Counted from the first letter of the stretch, positions 3,129 through 46,146 are shown. The stretch: 64,000 nt of DNA from Escherichia phage 236Ecol005PP (PP434423.1); one strand, 5' to 3'. Numbers and translations: made by a program. Notes: generated by a model not told the origin, from the letters alone.

Positions 3129-4753
<1,625 letters not shown>

Positions 4754-39814: not shown

Positions 39815-40984
39815 TTAAAAATATTTTTTAAAACTCATCATAACTTTATCATCAACATCATTATCAATCTGTGCTACAAGGTAAGATGAAAGTTCTACTT
39901 CTTGTGGCGCGGATTGAACATTATCAGAATTAAGATATTCACGAATCCAAGGATATGGATGTTTAACCGGAGCATCAGTAATTGGGCATGGAAGACCACA
40001 CTGTTTCATACGAGATACAGTTAAGTAATCAATAAAGCTCCACATGCTATTTGTATTTAATCCAGGAACATCGCCATCTTTAAATAAATGAACTGCCCAA
40101 TCTTTTTCTTGGCGGTTAACTTCCATGAAAATATCAACTGCTTCTTGTTCACACTCTTGAGCAATTTTAACCCATTCATCGCCATCAGTACCGGATTGAA
40201 GTTGACGAATAATATATTGAGTGCCTTTAAGGTGAAGCTGCTCATCACGAGCAATGAACTTCATAATCTTGGCATTACCTTCCATGATTTCCATGTTTTT
40301 GTGGAAGTTAAATGTACAGGCGAAAGATACATAAAAACGAATAGCTTCCAATGCGTTGATTACATGAAGGCAAAGATAAAGAGATTTCATTAGTGCTCGT
40401 TTAGTGCATTCAACAACTTTGCCTAGCTCTTCTTTACGAAATCCTTCTGATAAAATTCCTTCATAATCTTCAACCGCATTCTGATATTCACGAGTCTTAA
40501 CTAGAACATCATCGTAATAGCGACCAATGGACTCGGCACGTTTCATGATAGCTTTATCTAATACAATCTCATCAAACACTTTTGACGGATCAGTATAAAG
40601 ATTTCGCATAATATGAGTGTATGAACGGCTGTGAATAGTTTCACTAAAAGTCCATGTAGCAACCCATGTATCAAGGCTTGGGTCTGAAATTAATGACATA
40701 AGTACAGCAGACGGTGCACGACCCTGAATGCTATCTAGAAGTGATTGATACTTCAGGTTATTAGTAAAAATATCTTGCTGATACTGAGGAAGCTTGTTAA
40801 ATTGTGCAGCATCCATCATCAAGTTTACTTCTTCCGGACGCCAGAAAAATGACAACTGCTTTTCGGTTAAATCTTCAAAAACTTTATGGCGTTGAATATC
40901 ATAACGCGCAATACCAAGACCTGAACCGAAGAACATAGGTTCTTTTAAAACATCAACTGGATTTGTATTAAAAACTGTAGACAT
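39815..40984 (-). CDS. nrdB: ribonucleotide reductase small (beta) subunit, uninterrupted
   Basis: 389-aa continuous ORF; no intron. Confidence 0.9.
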   Translation of the reverse strand: MSTVFNTNPVDVLKEPMFFGSGLGIARYDIQRHKVFEDLTEKQLSFFWRPEEVNLMMDAAQFNKLPQYQQDIFTNNLKYQSLLDSIQGRAPSAVLMSLISDPSLDTWVATWTFSETIHSRSYTHIMRNLYTDPSKVFDEIVLDKAIMKRAESIGRYYDDVLVKTREYQNAVEDYEGILSEGFRKEELGKVVECTKRALMKSLYLCLHVINALEAIRFYVSFACTFNFHKNMEIMEGNAKIMKFIARDEQLHLKGTQYIIRQLQSGTDGDEWVKIAQECEQEAVDIFMEVNRQEKDWAVHLFKDGDVPGLNTNSMWSFIDYLTVSRMKQCGLPCPITDAPVKHPYPWIREYLNSDNVQSAPQEVELSSYLVAQIDNDVDDKVMMSFKKYF

Positions 40985-41019: not shown

Positions 41020-41811
41020 TCACATATTGTGTATAAGCACTTCAGTCTGAAATGATGCACCTTTCTTTTGCTTCCTATACATGGTTTCAAAATATTCAAT
41101 TTTGAAATTATTAGAAAGGGCCCAATCTTTTAAAATATAATTATTAATATCGTCTGATAGATTATTAGTGATAATAAATTTAGACTTCGATTGTTTAATT
41201 TTGTCTAATAATTCTAATTCATCCTTTTCTTCCCAGCCTGAATATTTAAATTTAGTAGAAAGATATGGCGGGTCAATGAATAAATTTTTGTTTTCAAAAT
41301 CCAAATCTCTGAATGATTTATTACTAAATGTAAATCTGTGTTGTCTATTTTTAAATTCAGAAAATTTATCCTGCTGAGACTTATTAAAAGAAGTTCTGGA
41401 ATACTTGGCTCTATTGGCGAAAGCCGCGTTATAATTCCCATTACTAGAAAATCGGATTAACGAACTGAATGAAAATAAATGTAGAACATAAAGATATAGT
41501 CCGTTTTTGGTTTTATCGTATTCTTTTGACAGATTATAAAAAGGTGCTGAATCTTTGTCATTCAAATTAAAGTCTTCAATAATTTGAACTATATCATTAA
41601 TTGAAGATGATTTCATCTTATTATACATATCTATAAGAGGAGTATTAATATCATTACATATAACATCTCTCTGACAATTCATAGAAAATCCAAGACCACC
41701 ACAAAAAGCATCCAAAACAGGCTTATCGTCAAAGCGGTTTGAAAATTGTCTAATAAATGGCATATACTTATGTTTTGCACCTGGATATGTTATGGCAGGT
41801 AGGTCTTTCAT
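41020..41811 (-). CDS. Dam-family N6-adenine DNA methyltransferase
   Basis: 263-aa ORF with N-terminal YPGAK, motif I DAFCGGLG and motif IV FIDPPY in the order typical of alpha-class Dam enzymes. Confidence 0.7.
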   Translation of the reverse strand: MKDLPAITYPGAKHKYMPFIRQFSNRFDDKPVLDAFCGGLGFSMNCQRDVICNDINTPLIDMYNKMKSSSINDIVQIIEDFNLNDKDSAPFYNLSKEYDKTKNGLYLYVLHLFSFSSLIRFSSNGNYNAAFANRAKYSRTSFNKSQQDKFSEFKNRQHRFTFSNKSFRDLDFENKNLFIDPPYLSTKFKYSGWEEKDELELLDKIKQSKSKFIITNNLSDDINNYILKDWALSNNFKIEYFETMYRKQKKGASFQTEVLIHNM

Positions 41812-41854: not shown

Positions 41855-42844
41855 TCATAATTTACAGGATGAACAATCTTCAGCTTTTGGAGTTTCTATT
41901 TCGTAATCATCAGTACCGGAACCATCACGAGTATTATGATAATAGAAGTTTTTAATGCCATAATACCATCCATATAGCATGTCATCAATCATTATTGACA
42001 TTGGAACCTTTCCTTTTGGAAAAATCTGCGGGTCATAATATGTATTCGCTGAAGCTGATTGACATACCCATTTAAGCATAATAGCTACCTGCGTAAGATA
42101 AGGTTTATTACCTTTCTTAGCTAATTTCCACGTATAATCATATAGGTCTATGTTATGTTCAATATTGGGCACGACTTGATTAAAGGAACCCTCTTTTGAT
42201 TCTTTAACAGAGACTGGTCCACGTGGAGGCTCGATACCATTAGTACTGTTAGAAACTTGGGAAGATGACTCACATGGCATAAGTGCTGATAATGTGCTAT
42301 TACGGATGCCAAAGAGCTTAAGGTCTTCCCGCAGCGCCGACCAGTCACAAACGTATTTTGGAGCTGCGATTTGGTCAATCTTTTTATTGTACCAGTCGAT
42401 AGGTAATTCGCCTCGAGACCAACGAGTGTCTGAATAATATTCGCAAGGTCCTTTTTCTTTGGCGAGCTTAATGGATGCTTTAATGAGTCCATACTGTAAT
42501 CTCTCAAATAGTTCATGTGTTAAATCGTTAGCATCTTCATAAGAAGCAAAGTTACTTGCCAGCCAAGCTGCATAGTTAGTAACACCTACACCAAGATTTC
42601 GACGCTTTTTAGCTTTTTCTGCTTCAGGAACTGGATATCCTTGGTAATCCAAAAGATTATCAAGAGCACGAACTTGGACTTCTGCTAATTCATTAATTTT
42701 ATCTTGGTCTTGCCAATCGAAGTTATCCAACACAAATGCGCTAAGGGTACAAAGCCCCACTTCTCCCTTGTTTTCAATAACTTCTATTGTAGTATACTCA
42801 TCATCTTCGTAAAATTCATCTACAAATTCATAATCAATATTCAT
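41855..42844 (-). CDS. nrdA: ribonucleotide reductase large subunit, C-terminal fragment
   Basis: 329-aa ORF; acidic 22-aa leader then GEVGLCTLSAF, ...LSALMPCESSSQVSNSTNGIEPPRG..., C-terminal CSSCKL typical of class Ia NrdA. Confidence 0.85.
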   Translation of the reverse strand: MNIDYEFVDEFYEDDEYTTIEVIENKGEVGLCTLSAFVLDNFDWQDQDKINELAEVQVRALDNLLDYQGYPVPEAEKAKKRRNLGVGVTNYAAWLASNFASYEDANDLTHELFERLQYGLIKASIKLAKEKGPCEYYSDTRWSRGELPIDWYNKKIDQIAAPKYVCDWSALREDLKLFGIRNSTLSALMPCESSSQVSNSTNGIEPPRGPVSVKESKEGSFNQVVPNIEHNIDLYDYTWKLAKKGNKPYLTQVAIMLKWVCQSASANTYYDPQIFPKGKVPMSIMIDDMLYGWYYGIKNFYYHNTRDGSGTDDYEIETPKAEDCSSCKL

Positions 42845-43544
42845 TTAATTCTTCTACCTTTTTTCTAGTAATTCCTAAAGCTTTAGATGCTCGATGTATT
42901 GATTGATATTCTATACCGTTTATTTTTACAGCAATTAAGTTATGGGGTTTTAATCCCTTTGGATGAGGTTTACTGACGAAAACTAAATTATCAAGCTCTG
43001 AAATCTTATCCAATTTCTTACACTTAAATCCTTTGTGATGCGCCCGTTTACCTTTACAAACGGCTGACATCGCAGATGGATTTAAATTATGCTCTTTACA
43101 AAATTCGTTAAGACCTCGATGAATTTCCTCATGACCATCTGGAAATGTAAACACCCAAGACGTTTGAAGTCGAGATTTAACTTCTGGAGACATAGGAATA
43201 CCTTTGTTCCAGGCCGGTTTGCCTTTATTATTTTCAGATACAGAAATAGCCAATTTTCTTCTAAGCCACCCATGTCGTTTATTGGTGTTCTTTCGTTCAA
43301 TATTATCTTCAGAATAAACACACATCATATTAGCGGCAAATATCAATTTATGATTATCTGGATATATCTTTACTAATAATTGATGAGCTATGTAATGCTC
43401 TTCTGGTGTCAAATCTACCAGGTTTTCCTTTGTATCAGAACCACCAATACACAGAGGTATAATATGATGTGATTCGGTATAGCAATCTAATTTTCTGTTC
43501 TTAGCTTTAGAAATAAGGTTATTGTAAATTTTAGAATAATCCAT
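42834..43544 (-). CDS. HNH homing endonuclease inserted within nrdA
   Basis: 236-aa ORF with HNH motif (HHIIPLCIGGSDTKENLVDLTPEEHYIAH) and C-terminal HTH-like segment; AGAGGA SD upstream; 3' end overlaps start of nrdA C-fragment. Confidence 0.8.
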   Translation of the reverse strand: MDYSKIYNNLISKAKNRKLDCYTESHHIIPLCIGGSDTKENLVDLTPEEHYIAHQLLVKIYPDNHKLIFAANMMCVYSEDNIERKNTNKRHGWLRRKLAISVSENNKGKPAWNKGIPMSPEVKSRLQTSWVFTFPDGHEEIHRGLNEFCKEHNLNPSAMSAVCKGKRAHHKGFKCKKLDKISELDNLVFVSKPHPKGLKPHNLIAVKINGIEYQSIHRASKALGITRKKVEELNEY

Positions 43545-43589
43545 AACTTTTCCTCTTGTTATGGATTATTTATTAACGGTCTGTGTACT
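42834..43589 (-). mobile_element. free-standing homing-endonuclease insertion splitting nrdA
   Basis: HNH ORF plus 45-nt leader lies exactly between the two nrdA pieces; too little non-ORF sequence for a group I intron core. Confidence 0.65.
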
Positions 43590-45023
43590 TTATTTGCTTT
43601 GAATTATACCGCCAGGATTAGCTTCATAAAACTTAGCTACATCCGACTTCTTAATTTTAATTAAACGGGTTTGTTGACTATTCACATCATTTGTTGGAAT
43701 AGCAATTTCACAACACAAGTTACTCTGACGAATAGGTGCTTTTTCACGAATAAATGGAGTATAGTTATTCGTATTATCAATGAACTGCACATAAATCCTT
43801 GCTGTTCCTGAGCGTTCAGTCATTAGCAATTCAAACAGTTCACGGGCTTTAATACGCTTTTTACGAATATTAGGGTCTTTTTCTGCGGCTTCATATAATT
43901 CACGGAAACGGTCTTGGTCTTTAAAATAAGAATAATAAAGCTCACCACCCATTTCATGTGGACTGAACAAAGTAATGTAGTCGTTCTTTCCAAAACGTTC
44001 CATCATCAAATCATTCAGCTGGACGCCATAATCCATATGACGGATACGGTTTTCTTCTACACCTTTGTTATTTTTCAAAACGAGAAGATTTTCAACTTCC
44101 AAATGCCAAATAGGATAATAAGCAGTAGCAGCGCCGCCACGAATTCCACCCTGTGAGCATGATTTAACAGCAGTCTGAAAATGTTTCCAAAAAGGAATAA
44201 CACCAGTATGGCGTACTTCACCTGTACCAATCTTAGAACCTTCGGCACGAATCATACCAACGTTAATACCAATTCCAGCGCGTTTGGAGATATATTCAAC
44301 AATTGAAGCGGAAACCTTATTGATAGACTTCAGCGAATCACCTGCCTCAATAACAACACATGAACTAAACTGTCGAGTCGGAGTACGACAGCCAGCCATA
44401 ATAGGAGTTGGCAATGAAATCTGTCGAGTAGATACTGCTTCATAAAAACGAATAACGTGTTTTAGTCTATCAACAGGTTCATCTTGATGCAATGCCATTC
44501 CAATAGTCATAAATGCAAACTGCGGAGTTTCATAAATTTGACCAGTGGTTTTATCTTTAACTAGATATTTTTCTTTTAATTGCATCGCCCCGGAATAAGT
44601 AAATTCCATATCCCGCTCATGCTTAATTTTTGATTCTAAAAATGTAATTTCTTCTGCTGAATATTTTGACAGCAGTTCAGGGTCATATTTACCTTCATTT
44701 ACACAGTAAGAAATATGGTCAATAAATGAACGTGGTTCATATTGTCCGTAAACATGCTTACGAAGAGCAAACATTAAACAGCGTGCAGCTACATATTGAT
44801 AATCAGGCTCTTCAACTGAAATAGAATTCGCAGCAGCCTTAATTACAATGGTTTGAATGTCATCAGTGGTCATTCCATCACGGAGATATGATTTAATATT
44901 TTCATATAATTCATAAGGATCTACAGATGTTCCTTCAGCTGCCCAAGATAAAACTTTAATAATTTTTTGCGGGTCAAAGCTCTGAGAAACACCACTACTT
45001 TTGATAACATTAATTAATTGCAT
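43590..45023 (-). CDS. nrdA: ribonucleotide reductase large subunit, N-terminal fragment
   Basis: 477-aa ORF with ATP-cone-like N-terminus and active-site motif SNLCCEIAIPT, then a 29-aa Lys-rich non-homologous tail and stop. Confidence 0.85.
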   Translation of the reverse strand: MQLINVIKSSGVSQSFDPQKIIKVLSWAAEGTSVDPYELYENIKSYLRDGMTTDDIQTIVIKAAANSISVEEPDYQYVAARCLMFALRKHVYGQYEPRSFIDHISYCVNEGKYDPELLSKYSAEEITFLESKIKHERDMEFTYSGAMQLKEKYLVKDKTTGQIYETPQFAFMTIGMALHQDEPVDRLKHVIRFYEAVSTRQISLPTPIMAGCRTPTRQFSSCVVIEAGDSLKSINKVSASIVEYISKRAGIGINVGMIRAEGSKIGTGEVRHTGVIPFWKHFQTAVKSCSQGGIRGGAATAYYPIWHLEVENLLVLKNNKGVEENRIRHMDYGVQLNDLMMERFGKNDYITLFSPHEMGGELYYSYFKDQDRFRELYEAAEKDPNIRKKRIKARELFELLMTERSGTARIYVQFIDNTNNYTPFIREKAPIRQSNLCCEIAIPTNDVNSQQTRLIKIKKSDVAKFYEANPGGIIQSK

Positions 45024-45892: not shown

Positions 45893-46146
45893 CATTATGT
45901 TCAGATAAGGTCGTTAATCTTATCCCGGAATTATATCCAGCTGCATGTCACCATACAGATCAGACTATATCTCCATCTTGATGAAGCAAGATGTCTATCG
46001 TTTCGAGTCACTTGACCCTACTCCCCAAAGGGATAGTCGTTAGGCATTTAGTTCAAAAGAACATTTAGCACGGGATTGTCTACTAGAGAGGTTCCCCGTT
46101 TAGATAGATTACAAGTATAAGTCACCTTATACTCAGGCCTCAATTA
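45893..46146 (-). other. group I self-splicing intron in td, ORF-less (about 254 nt)
   Basis: Exon 1 ends ...GTT TTC TTG GGT then TAATTGAGGCCTGAGTATAAGGTGACTTATACTTG...; intron ends ...CTGAACATAATG; both ends match the T4 td intron as recalled; no ORF inside. Confidence 0.8.

What the first reader, a model, noticed from the sequence alone, without database searches (positions are those of the whole stretch)
41855..45023. nrdA is a gene in pieces: HNH endonuclease insertion splits the RNR large subunit across its active site
The N-terminal ORF (43590..45023) carries the ATP-cone region and the radical-site motif SNLCCEIAIPT, then leaves NrdA homology and ends after a 29-aa Lys-rich tail. The C-terminal ORF (41855..42844) starts with a 22-aa acidic leader (MNIDYEFVDEFYEDDEYTTIEV) and then resumes with GEVGLCTLSAF through the C-terminal CSSCKL. 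An HNH homing-endonuclease ORF sits exactly between them with only about 45 nt of leader, so this is not an intron or intein but a free-standing insertion, and catalytic residues are divided between two polypeptides. The oppositely charged tails at the split could help the fragments reassociate (inference). From memory T4 nrdA is a single ORF; a comparable split RNR was described in Aeromonas phage Aeh1.
Basis: partly seen in the sequence, partly recalled or inferred. Interest (0 to 1): 0.85.

Follow-up and report, generated by a model that had tools for sequence, protein, structure and literature searches.

The report
Endonuclease-split nrdA with reassembly tails
In this T4-like coliphage a mobile HNH endonuclease gene has cut the ribonucleotide reductase large-subunit gene in two and added oppositely charged tails to the halves; this is a real but already known arrangement, homologous to the one studied in Aeromonas phage Aeh1.

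Summary
On the minus strand, nrdA is two ORFs (477 aa, 43590-45023; 329 aa, 41855-42844) separated by a 236-aa HNH gene (42834-43544). Compared with uninterrupted alleles in sister phages, a ~911-nt cassette replaces ~7 nt. It removes only three loop residues, between E. coli NrdA D454 and E458. C225/N437/C439/E441 therefore lie on one polypeptide, and C462, Y730/Y731 and the C-terminal cysteines on the other. No intron (Rfam) or intein (Pfam) is present, and the reading frames differ.

The HNH is 45% identical to Aeh1 MobE over its full length. The basic tail and acidic leader are homologous. The spacer length, gene overlap and start-codon hairpin with a late-promoter motif all match. A third lineage (metagenome contig L092) shares every feature.

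About 34 Tequatrovirus GenBank records already carry the cassette, and a 2022 preprint mentions such cases in passing. Verdict: a new member of a known kind, of moderate interest. Its main value is an E. coli-tractable model, plus evidence that the tails belong to the mobile cassette.

The parts
43677..45023 (-). nrdA-N core, codons 1-449: ATP-cone, all-alpha domain, first part of the barrel and the finger loop SNLCCEIAIPT (equivalents of E. coli C225, N437, C439, E441)
   Evidence: It is 96% identical to the uninterrupted ECO07P2 NrdA. dN/dS among split alleles is about 0.007.
43590..43676 (-). 28-codon basic C-terminal tail (QQTRLIKIKKSDVAKFYEANPGGIIQSK) plus TAA stop. It is part of the inserted cassette.
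   Evidence: Absent from intact alleles. pI 10.0, net charge +3.8. Homologous to the tails of L092 and Aeh1, with core L.K.KKS.V..F; 18 of 2000 shuffles reach the score.
42764..43674 (-). The whole inserted cassette (about 911 nt), which replaces about 7 nt (TGATGCT) of uninterrupted nrdA alleles
   Evidence: Pairwise and six-way DNA alignments against intact alleles ECO07P2, BGP and T4.
43545..43589 (-). 45-nt spacer between the nrdA-N stop and the HNH start. It contains a second in-frame stop.
   Evidence: Aeh1 has 46 nt here and L092 has 49 nt.
43567..43574 (-). T4 late-promoter-like AATAAATA (consensus TATAAATA) overlapping the 5' arm of the hairpin
   Evidence: L092 has the exact consensus TATAAATA at the same position. 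The published design for Aeh1 mobE and I-TevI is described in PMC2988022. Function here is inferred.
43535..43570 (-). Perfect 13-bp RNA hairpin (AAUAAUCCAUAAC / GUUAUGGAUUAUU). The Shine-Dalgarno GAGG is in the loop and the HNH AUG (43544-43542) is in the 3' arm.
   Evidence: -19.2 kcal/mol for the whole 111-nt folded stretch, which also contains a second small stem; z = -2.5. Identical in FL33 and HY01. L092 has a 14-bp equivalent with one compensatory A-U to G-C change (z = -4.6). Aeh1 has an RBS-sequestering hairpin.
42834..43544 (-). Free-standing HNH homing-endonuclease gene (236 aa), the 'split-type' MobE
   Evidence: 45% identity to Aeh1 MobE over 227 aa, E = 5e-57. PHROG 655 'homing endonuclease' at 6.9e-59. 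HNH core matches McrA and I-HmuI. Pfam I-HmuI NUMOD-like domain. T4 MobE matches only the N-terminal 130 aa. dN/dS 0.06-0.18.
42979..43194 (-). Sharply bounded block inside the HNH gene (residues ~118-189, the NUMOD-like DNA-binding module) that is ~30% divergent between window-type and HY01-type cassettes
   Evidence: Flanking cassette sequence is at least 97% identical, which indicates a recombinational module swap.
42764..42844 (-). 27-codon acidic N-terminal leader of nrdA-C (MNIDYEFVDEFYEDDEYTTIEVIENKG). Its first 11 nt overlap the end of the HNH gene.
   Evidence: pI 4.05, net charge -9.5. Homologous to the L092 and Aeh1 leaders, with core YED.EYTT; 0 of 2000 shuffles reach the score.
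41855..42763 (-). nrdA-C core, codons 28-329 plus stop. It resumes at the E. coli E458 equivalent and carries the equivalents of C462, Y730/Y731 and the C-terminal CSSCKL.
   Evidence: 94% identical to ECO07P2. dN/dS among split alleles 0.05-0.12.
42720..42763 (-). 44 nt immediately downstream of the cassette with clustered, mostly synonymous substitutions. All split alleles read GAAGTGGGSCTYTGY where all intact alleles read GAAATTGGATTGTGT.
   Evidence: 27-32% divergence here against 1-5% elsewhere in nrdA. Three of the nine class-fixed differences lie within 7 nt of the junction.

Best explanation
A ~911-nt mobile cassette of the Aeh1 'split-type MobE' family sits inside nrdA of this T4-like coliphage, in the loop between the Cys439 finger loop and the strand carrying Cys462. 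In order, the cassette carries a 28-codon basic tail with a stop codon, a 45-nt regulatory spacer, an HNH homing-endonuclease gene, and (overlapping the end of that gene) a start codon with a 27-codon acidic leader. As a result nrdA is expressed as two separate polypeptides from one transcript. By homology with Aeh1, the two halves associate into a heterodimer, and the oppositely charged tails are needed to build the active (NrdA-N/NrdA-C)2-NrdB2 enzyme. Translation of the endonuclease is probably blocked on early and middle transcripts by a hairpin that buries its AUG. It is probably released on late transcripts that start from the promoter-like element inside the hairpin's 5' arm. The endonuclease presumably cuts uninterrupted nrdA alleles of co-infecting phages near the insertion point, and recombinational repair copies the whole cassette, tails included. 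What is shown here: the anatomy, the homology to Aeh1 and L092, purifying selection on the parts, and the absence of any intron or intein. What is inferred: separate translation, assembly and enzyme activity, late-only expression of the endonuclease, and cleavage and homing.
For: Anatomy and completeness of the two halves.
Homology to the experimentally characterised Aeh1 system:
- Same gene order and spacing: 473 aa / 46 nt / 237 aa / 14-nt overlap / 323 aa in Aeh1, against 477 / 45 / 236 / 11 / 329 here.
- The endonuclease is 45% identical over its full length.
- The breakpoint is the same and the tails are homologous.
A third lineage, L092, has the same cassette, with its HNH 62% identical, conserved tails, a 49-nt spacer and an 11-nt overlap.
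All three lineages have a hairpin over the endonuclease start. The window and L092 also have a late-promoter motif overlapping its 5' arm, and their stems differ by one compensatory pair. Aeh1 has a late-promoter-like TCTAAATA in the hairpin loop (read from the sequence). The published model is summarised in PMC2988022 and PMC2677866.
In Aeh1 both halves are made as separate proteins that retain their tails, the enzyme is fully active, and deleting the tails lowers activity about 2000-fold (PMC3045599).
Purifying selection among split alleles: N core 36 synonymous to 1 non-synonymous difference; C core dN/dS 0.05-0.12; tails 5 synonymous to 1 non-synonymous; HNH 0.06-0.18.
Signs of mobility:
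- Only ~34 of ~826 matching records carry the cassette, while near-identical sister phages have intact nrdA.
- The cassette occurs in different local backgrounds: with or without the methyltransferase, and with three different td states.
- Substitutions cluster at the downstream junction.
Against: No experiment exists for this phage. Separate translation, assembly, activity and endonuclease cleavage all rest on the analogy with Aeh1. The low dN/dS of the nrdA cores could partly reflect recombination with intact alleles rather than selection acting after the split. The late-promoter element has one mismatch to the consensus, and the generic promoter scan showed no enrichment. In this phage the hairpin leaves the Shine-Dalgarno sequence in the loop, so repression would have to act through the buried AUG. 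The clustered junction substitutions could equally be donor sequence brought in with the cassette rather than selected immunity to cleavage. Only three split and three intact alleles were compared in detail.
Confidence: 0.85

Rival explanations
1. The insertion killed nrdA. The two ORFs are decaying pseudogene fragments, and the phage relies on the host NrdAB or its own anaerobic NrdDG.
For: The annotators of HY01 left both halves unannotated.
Against: Both halves keep intact reading frames and all catalytic residues in about 34 records. dN/dS is 0.007-0.12. The tails are conserved across three lineages whose NrdA cores are only 50-68% identical. nrdB remains intact next door. The homologous Aeh1 enzyme is fully active (PMC3045599).
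Confidence: 0.07
2. A single NrdA polypeptide is restored by an unrecognised intron, by protein trans-splicing, or by ribosomal bypassing.
For: Other phage RNR genes are repaired in these ways. The td gene 2 kb away has a group I intron. L092 carries two inteins in the same gene. L031, L040 and L043 have split inteins in nrdA.
Against: Rfam at E <= 1 finds no intron in the gap. There is no intein or Hint signal in the ORFs or the tails. The N tail lacks an initial Cys, and the leader lacks a terminal His-Asn and a +1 nucleophile. The gap is 911 nt and holds a complete, conserved, independently initiated ORF. In Aeh1, peptides from both tails were found in the mature proteins (PMC3045599).
Confidence: 0.02
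3. This rival concerns origin only. The tails and the endonuclease gene would be the degenerate remnant of a split intein of the 'fractured gene' type, rather than sequence that arrived with a transposing mobE.
For: Crona et al. raised this possibility. Fractured nrdA genes with split inteins share the endonuclease-upstream hairpin and late promoter, and the overlap between the endonuclease gene and the downstream fragment (PMC2677866; L031, L040 and L043). Electrostatic pairing of the halves is also a shared feature.
Against: The split-intein site is at the catalytic Cys, about 15 residues upstream of this split. The tails are 28 and 27 aa, compared with a ~100-aa N-intein. No intein block motifs or Pfam signal are present. 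L092 carries a normal intein at that upstream site in addition to the cassette, so the two elements are distinct.
Confidence: 0.08
4. The split is a sequencing or assembly artefact.
For: None found.
Against: The same 911-nt cassette, with the same junctions, is present in dozens of independently sequenced phages.
Confidence: 0.01

Closest known systems
Aeromonas phage Aeh1 nrdA-a / mobE / nrdA-b 'genes-in-pieces' RNR (Friedrich et al. 2007 PNAS; Gibb & Edgell 2007, 2009; Crona et al. 2011, PMC3045599)
   Same: Same gene and same loop position. The endonuclease is homologous over its full length (45% identity). The basic tail and acidic leader are homologous. The spacer is 45 nt against 46 nt, and in both the endonuclease gene overlaps the downstream half. 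Both have a hairpin over the endonuclease translation start, with a late-promoter-like element associated with it.
   Different: The host is a Tequatrovirus of E. coli, not a Cinqassovirus of Aeromonas. The NrdA cores are only 50-57% identical. The hairpin sequence is unrelated and buries the AUG rather than the Shine-Dalgarno sequence. The distal part of the N tail differs. In this genus closely related phages with uninterrupted nrdA exist, so the insertion boundaries can be defined to the nucleotide.
T4 MobE (free-standing HNH gene between nrdA and nrdB; PMC2790892)
   Same: The N-terminal HNH catalytic domain is homologous (45% identity over 130 aa), and it lies in the same RNR operon.
   Different: T4 MobE is intergenic, only 141 aa, and lacks the C-terminal half shared by the window and Aeh1 proteins. 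It does not split a gene. In this window the intergenic position holds a D12 methyltransferase gene instead.
'Fractured genes': split inteins with a free-standing endonuclease gene between the halves, including nrdA (Dassa et al. 2009, PMC2677866)
   Same: Two ORFs with an endonuclease gene between them, a hairpin and late promoter upstream of the endonuclease, and overlap of the endonuclease gene with the downstream fragment. Examples were seen here in L031, L040 and L043.
   Different: Those are repaired by protein trans-splicing, and their insertion is at the catalytic Cys. Here no intein is present, and the halves most likely stay separate.
T4 topoisomerase genes 39 and 60, split by MobA
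   Same: A Mob-family HNH gene splits an essential enzyme gene, and both products carry terminal extensions of similar charge distribution (discussed in PMC3045599, and bioRxiv 10.1101/2022.08.31.505936).
   Different: A different target gene. Gene 60 additionally uses translational bypassing. Not examined in this window.
Intron-encoded endonucleases of T-even phages (I-TevI in td, I-TevIII in nrdB)
   Same: A selfish endonuclease inside a nucleotide-metabolism gene, with the same late-promoter and hairpin control.
   Different: Those sit within self-splicing group I introns. No intron is detected here.

Membership tests
Aeh1-type MobE-split nrdA (genes-in-pieces RNR) | nrdA is split into two ORFs in the loop between the C439/E441 finger loop and C462 | tested here: met
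   The break lies between the equivalents of E. coli D454 and E458, and only three residues are replaced.
Aeh1-type MobE-split nrdA (genes-in-pieces RNR) | The intervening gene is a free-standing HNH endonuclease homologous to Aeh1 MobE over its full length | tested here: met
   (45% identity over 227 aa, E = 5e-57). Searches show a graded full-length family running from 83% to 45% identity.
Aeh1-type MobE-split nrdA (genes-in-pieces RNR) | A basic C-terminal tail on the first half and an acidic N-terminal leader on the second half, neither derived from nrdA | tested here: met
   (pI 10.0 and 4.05). Searches show homology to the Aeh1 and L092 tails; the leader's score is reached by 0 of 2000 shuffles.
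Aeh1-type MobE-split nrdA (genes-in-pieces RNR) | The endonuclease start is sequestered in an RNA hairpin associated with a late promoter, and the endonuclease gene overlaps the downstream half | tested here: met
   predicted structure and motif only; 11-nt overlap. Regulation itself was not tested.
Aeh1-type MobE-split nrdA (genes-in-pieces RNR) | The two polypeptides are made separately and assemble with NrdB into an active, tail-dependent enzyme | not testable with these tools
   Shown only for Aeh1 (PMC3045599). Here it is supported indirectly by purifying selection.
Aeh1-type MobE-split nrdA (genes-in-pieces RNR) | The endonuclease cleaves cassette-less nrdA and promotes homing | not testable with these tools
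   Indirect evidence only: patchy distribution, clustered junction substitutions, and an intact HNH motif.
Group I intron carrying a homing-endonuclease gene | A catalytic intron core flanks the endonuclease ORF | tested here: not met
   Rfam at E <= 1 finds the td intron (72.7 bits) but nothing in 42764-43674.
Intein or split intein (fractured gene) | Hint-domain blocks, an N-terminal Cys/Ser, and a C-terminal His-Asn followed by Cys/Ser/Thr, in frame with the host protein | tested here: not met
   Searches find no Hint or intein family. The tail starts with Q and the leader ends NKG followed by E. The frames differ and stops intervene. Positive controls: L092, L031, L040 and L043.
Canonical T4 MobE | Located in the nrdA-nrdB intergenic region without disrupting a gene | tested here: not met
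   Only the N-terminal catalytic domain is shared.

The most novel reading that the evidence does not exclude
The basic tail and acidic leader are not accidental by-products of one transposition in Aeh1. They are an integral, conserved, co-mobilised part of the MobE cassette. On this reading, the homing endonuclease carries its own protein-level 'splint'. That lets it live inside the catalytic core of an essential enzyme gene without an intron or intein, and it has persisted this way across at least three (probably a dozen or more) T4-like lineages. The coliphage version, which has natural cassette-free sister alleles, would make both the homing and the mechanism of the tails directly testable in E. 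coli.
Probability: 0.6. Interest if true: 0.55.

Novelty: new member of a known kind. Interest (0 to 1): 0.35.

Why it matters
The biology itself is known: an essential enzyme cut through its active site by a selfish gene and rescued by added interaction peptides, shown biochemically in Aeh1. This locus adds three things.

1. It places the system in T4-like phages of E. coli. There, near-identical phages with uninterrupted nrdA exist, so homing crosses, target-site mapping and tail mutagenesis become straightforward.
2. The tails, the spacer hairpin and the gene overlap are conserved in three lineages whose NrdA cores are only 50-68% identical. That supports the idea that the rescue peptides travel with the endonuclease gene. 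In 2010 this could not be tested, because database searches with the tails found nothing.
3. It is a practical warning for annotation. Some public records leave the two halves unannotated or treat them as broken.

Tried and rejected
Their genomic context therefore remains unknown. I only infer they belong to split nrdA genes, from their full-length similarity and the conserved ...LNEY C-terminus.
- Two searches of the large protein database with leader-containing queries timed out.
- The exhaustive representative search with the first 70 aa of nrdA-C found only one truncated leader-bearing fragment.
I did not attempt a single-sequence model, so the idea that the tails pair as beta strands is untested.
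- The degenerate DNA scan for the leader motif gave only Aeh1 in IMG/VR; the two other hits were chance matches. In the metagenome contigs it gave 15 chance matches and one real locus, L092.
- The profile-guided IMG/VR scan returned mostly canonical intergenic mobE loci.
- The sigma-70 promoter and terminator scans showed no enrichment over shuffled sequence.
- Friedrich et al. 2007 (PMC1851037) is not held, so I took its content from later papers that cite it.
- An apparent resemblance between the leader (EYTTIEV) and intein block F (VYDIxV) is out of register, and I rejected it as evidence.
- My first split-versus-intact dN/dS calculation for the C core used the wrong codon register and is invalid.
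Full report
WHAT IS THERE

The window is part of a T4-like (Tequatrovirus) genome. Around the finding, every gene is on the minus strand, in the T4 order frd, td, nrdA.2, nrdA.1, nrdA, nrdB, denA, rnlA.

Pfam shows the two nrdA ORFs are complementary halves. The first has the ATP-cone, the all-alpha domain and positions 1-221 of the 523-position barrel profile. The second has positions 219-523.

EXACT BOUNDARIES

Close relatives with an uninterrupted 754-aa nrdA exist (ECO07P2, BGP, T4 itself). Aligned against them, a ~911-nt insertion (window 43674 to 42764) replaces about 7 nt.

At the protein level, N codons 1-449 and C codons 28-329 together cover the intact protein apart from residues 450-452 (H-D-A, or P-D-A in T4). 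In E. coli NrdA numbering the break lies between D454 and E458. The equivalents of C225, N437, C439 and E441 are therefore on the first polypeptide. The equivalents of C462, Y730/Y731 and the C-terminal cysteine pair are on the second.

The non-NrdA extensions are a 28-aa basic tail (pI 10.0, net charge +3.8) and a 27-aa acidic leader (pI 4.05, net charge -9.5).

NOT AN INTRON, INTEIN OR ARTEFACT

- Rfam at a permissive threshold finds the td group I intron 2 kb away, but nothing in the nrdA gap.
- Neither nrdA ORF matched an intein or Hint family at E <= 0.001, and the tail peptides matched none at E <= 10.
- The HNH ORF is separated from nrdA-N by two in-frame stop codons, and nrdA-C is in a different frame (read from the sequence).
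- The same cassette with the same junctions occurs in about 34 Tequatrovirus records, some of them GenBank/RefSeq duplicates, out of about 826 records matching the region. A sequencing error is therefore excluded.

IT IS THE AEH1 ELEMENT

Aeromonas phage Aeh1 has nrdA-A (473 aa), a 46-nt gap, mobE (237 aa), a 14-nt overlap and nrdA-B (323 aa). The window has 477 aa, 45 nt, 236 aa, 11 nt and 329 aa.

- The window's HNH protein is 45% identical to Aeh1 MobE over 227 residues (E = 5e-57). T4's own intergenic MobE (141 aa) matches only the N-terminal catalytic 130 residues.
- The breakpoint is the same, and the tails are homologous rather than merely similar in charge:

  window leader: MNIDYEFVDEFYEDDEYTTIEV
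  Aeh1 leader: MIEHERIYEVYEDEEYTTVEI
  window N tail: RLIKIKKSDVAKF
  Aeh1 N tail: MLFKVKKSEVDKF

. Composition-preserving shuffles reach the leader's score 0 times in 2000 and the N tail's score 18 times in 2000.
- For Aeh1 it has been shown that both halves are translated separately and keep their tails. The (NrdA-a/NrdA-b)2-NrdB2 enzyme is fully active. Removing the tails lowers activity about 2000-fold by impairing dimerisation of the heterodimers (PMC3045599).

A THIRD LINEAGE

A degenerate DNA scan for the leader motif recovered L092, from a 128-kb metagenomic contig. There the NrdA cores are 63-68% identical to the window and the HNH protein is 62% identical. The spacer is 49 nt and the overlap 11 nt. 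The tail ends ...KKNVLIKIKKSDVLDFYKKHPDGVIRT, and the leader is MSINYEIVDEFYEDDEYTTLQVIDSKE.

So the tails, endonuclease, spacing and overlap are conserved as one unit in three lineages. Divergence of the cassette roughly tracks divergence of the host gene. The large protein database also holds a graded series of full-length relatives of the endonuclease, from 83% down to 45% identity. I could not obtain their genomic context.

REGULATION (PREDICTED)

In the window's 45-nt spacer, a perfect 13-bp hairpin places the GAGG Shine-Dalgarno sequence in the loop and the HNH AUG in the 3' arm. The folded 111-nt stretch has -19.2 kcal/mol and z = -2.5. An AATAAATA motif, one mismatch from the T4 late-promoter consensus, overlaps the hairpin's 5' arm.

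L092 has a 14-bp equivalent (z = -4.6) with the exact TATAAATA in the same place. The synonymous GAU-to-GAC change in its 3' arm is compensated by A-to-G in the 5' arm. Aeh1 has its published RBS-sequestering hairpin.

This is the design described for Aeh1 mobE, I-TevI, I-TevII, I-TevIII and segB. Early and middle read-through transcripts fold and block translation. Late transcripts start inside the hairpin and are translated (PMC2988022; PMC2677866). The generic sigma-70 and terminator scans were uninformative.

EVIDENCE THAT THE PARTS ARE FUNCTIONAL AND THE ELEMENT IS MOBILE

Among three split alleles (window, FL33, HY01):

- The N core differs by 36 synonymous and 1 non-synonymous change (dN/dS about 0.007).
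- The C core has dN/dS 0.05-0.12.
- The tails show 5 synonymous and 1 non-synonymous change.
- The HNH gene has dN/dS 0.06-0.18.

The cassette sits in different local backgrounds. The window has a D12 methyltransferase gene between nrdA and nrdB and an ORF-less td intron. FL33 has no methyltransferase and has an I-TevI-containing intron. HY01 has neither.

The 44 nt immediately downstream of the cassette differ from intact alleles at 27-32% of positions, against 1-5% elsewhere. All split alleles read GAAGTGGGSCTYTGY where all intact alleles read GAAATTGGATTGTGT. That pattern is expected either for a disrupted recognition site or for donor sequence co-converted with the cassette.

These observations fit homing but do not prove it.

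COMPARISON WITH WHAT IS KNOWN, AND NOVELTY

The closest known system is the Aeh1 nrdA-a/mobE/nrdA-b locus, and every sequence-testable defining feature is met.

A 2013 survey listed Aeh1 as the only such T4-like case (PMC3653736). In 2010, searches with the tails found nothing. [quoted passage not shown]

Most GenBank records already annotate two RNR fragments plus a homing endonuclease. The HY01 record omits the halves.

I therefore rate this a new member of a known kind. The remaining value is the E. coli-tractable setting and the comparative evidence that the rescue tails are part of the mobile cassette.

Noticed in passing
window 45893-46146 (minus strand): td is interrupted by a 254-nt group I intron lacking the I-TevI ORF (Rfam RF00028, 72.7 bits). 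The 5' and 3' parts match the T4 td intron, and the ORF loop is cleanly absent. A single-piece match appears in only two listed records (HMD-9 at 99.3%, N2 at 91.7%). Most relatives have either the I-TevI-containing intron or no intron.
   Followed up: partly
window 41020-41811 (minus strand): A low-GC (25-30%) D12-class N6-adenine DNA methyltransferase gene occupies the nrdA-nrdB intergenic position, where T4 has mobE and nrdB.1. It is found in only 6 phage records. The four I could check (T4_ev240, NR1, ECO07P2, BGP) have intact nrdA, so this window's combination of methyltransferase and split nrdA is not in the collection.
   Followed up: partly
window 42979-43194 (minus strand): Inside the HNH gene, a sharply bounded ~216-nt block covering the NUMOD-like DNA-binding module is ~30% divergent between window-type and HY01-type cassettes, while the rest of the cassette is at least 97% identical. 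This looks like a recombinational swap of the DNA-binding module, which might change target preference.
   Followed up: partly
L092 5506-7782 (minus strand): In this metagenomic relative, the N-terminal nrdA fragment also carries two in-frame mini-inteins (AVKS|CLTPNTLV...VLTHN|CSQGG and QSNL|CLSGDSLV...ILVHN|CLEIAIPT; Pfam Intein_splicing 1.1e-18) in addition to the MobE cassette. That makes three selfish elements in one catalytic gene.
   Followed up: partly
L031 54-3001; L040 30-2957; L043 71-2943: IMG/VR contigs in which nrdA is 'fractured' at the catalytic Cys by a split intein, with a free-standing endonuclease gene between the halves (HNH-like in L031 and L043, GIY-YIG in L040), followed by a canonical intergenic mobE-like gene. 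This matches the arrangement described by Dassa et al. 2009.
   Followed up: partly
L009 (HY01, KF925357) 1529-2518 and 3264-4697: The public HY01 record annotates the homing endonuclease but leaves both nrdA halves unannotated (locus tags 0218 and 0220 are skipped). The split gene was apparently treated as broken.
   Followed up: no
window 39815-40984 (minus strand): nrdB is a single uninterrupted 389-aa ORF. The group I intron with I-TevIII that interrupts T4 nrdB is absent.
   Followed up: no
protein P0012 (metagenomic homologue of the HNH protein): This 222-aa family member lacks about 15 residues of the HNH motif (EEHYIAHQLLVKIY), so it is probably a catalytically dead copy, consistent with the decay phase of a homing-endonuclease life cycle.
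   Followed up: no
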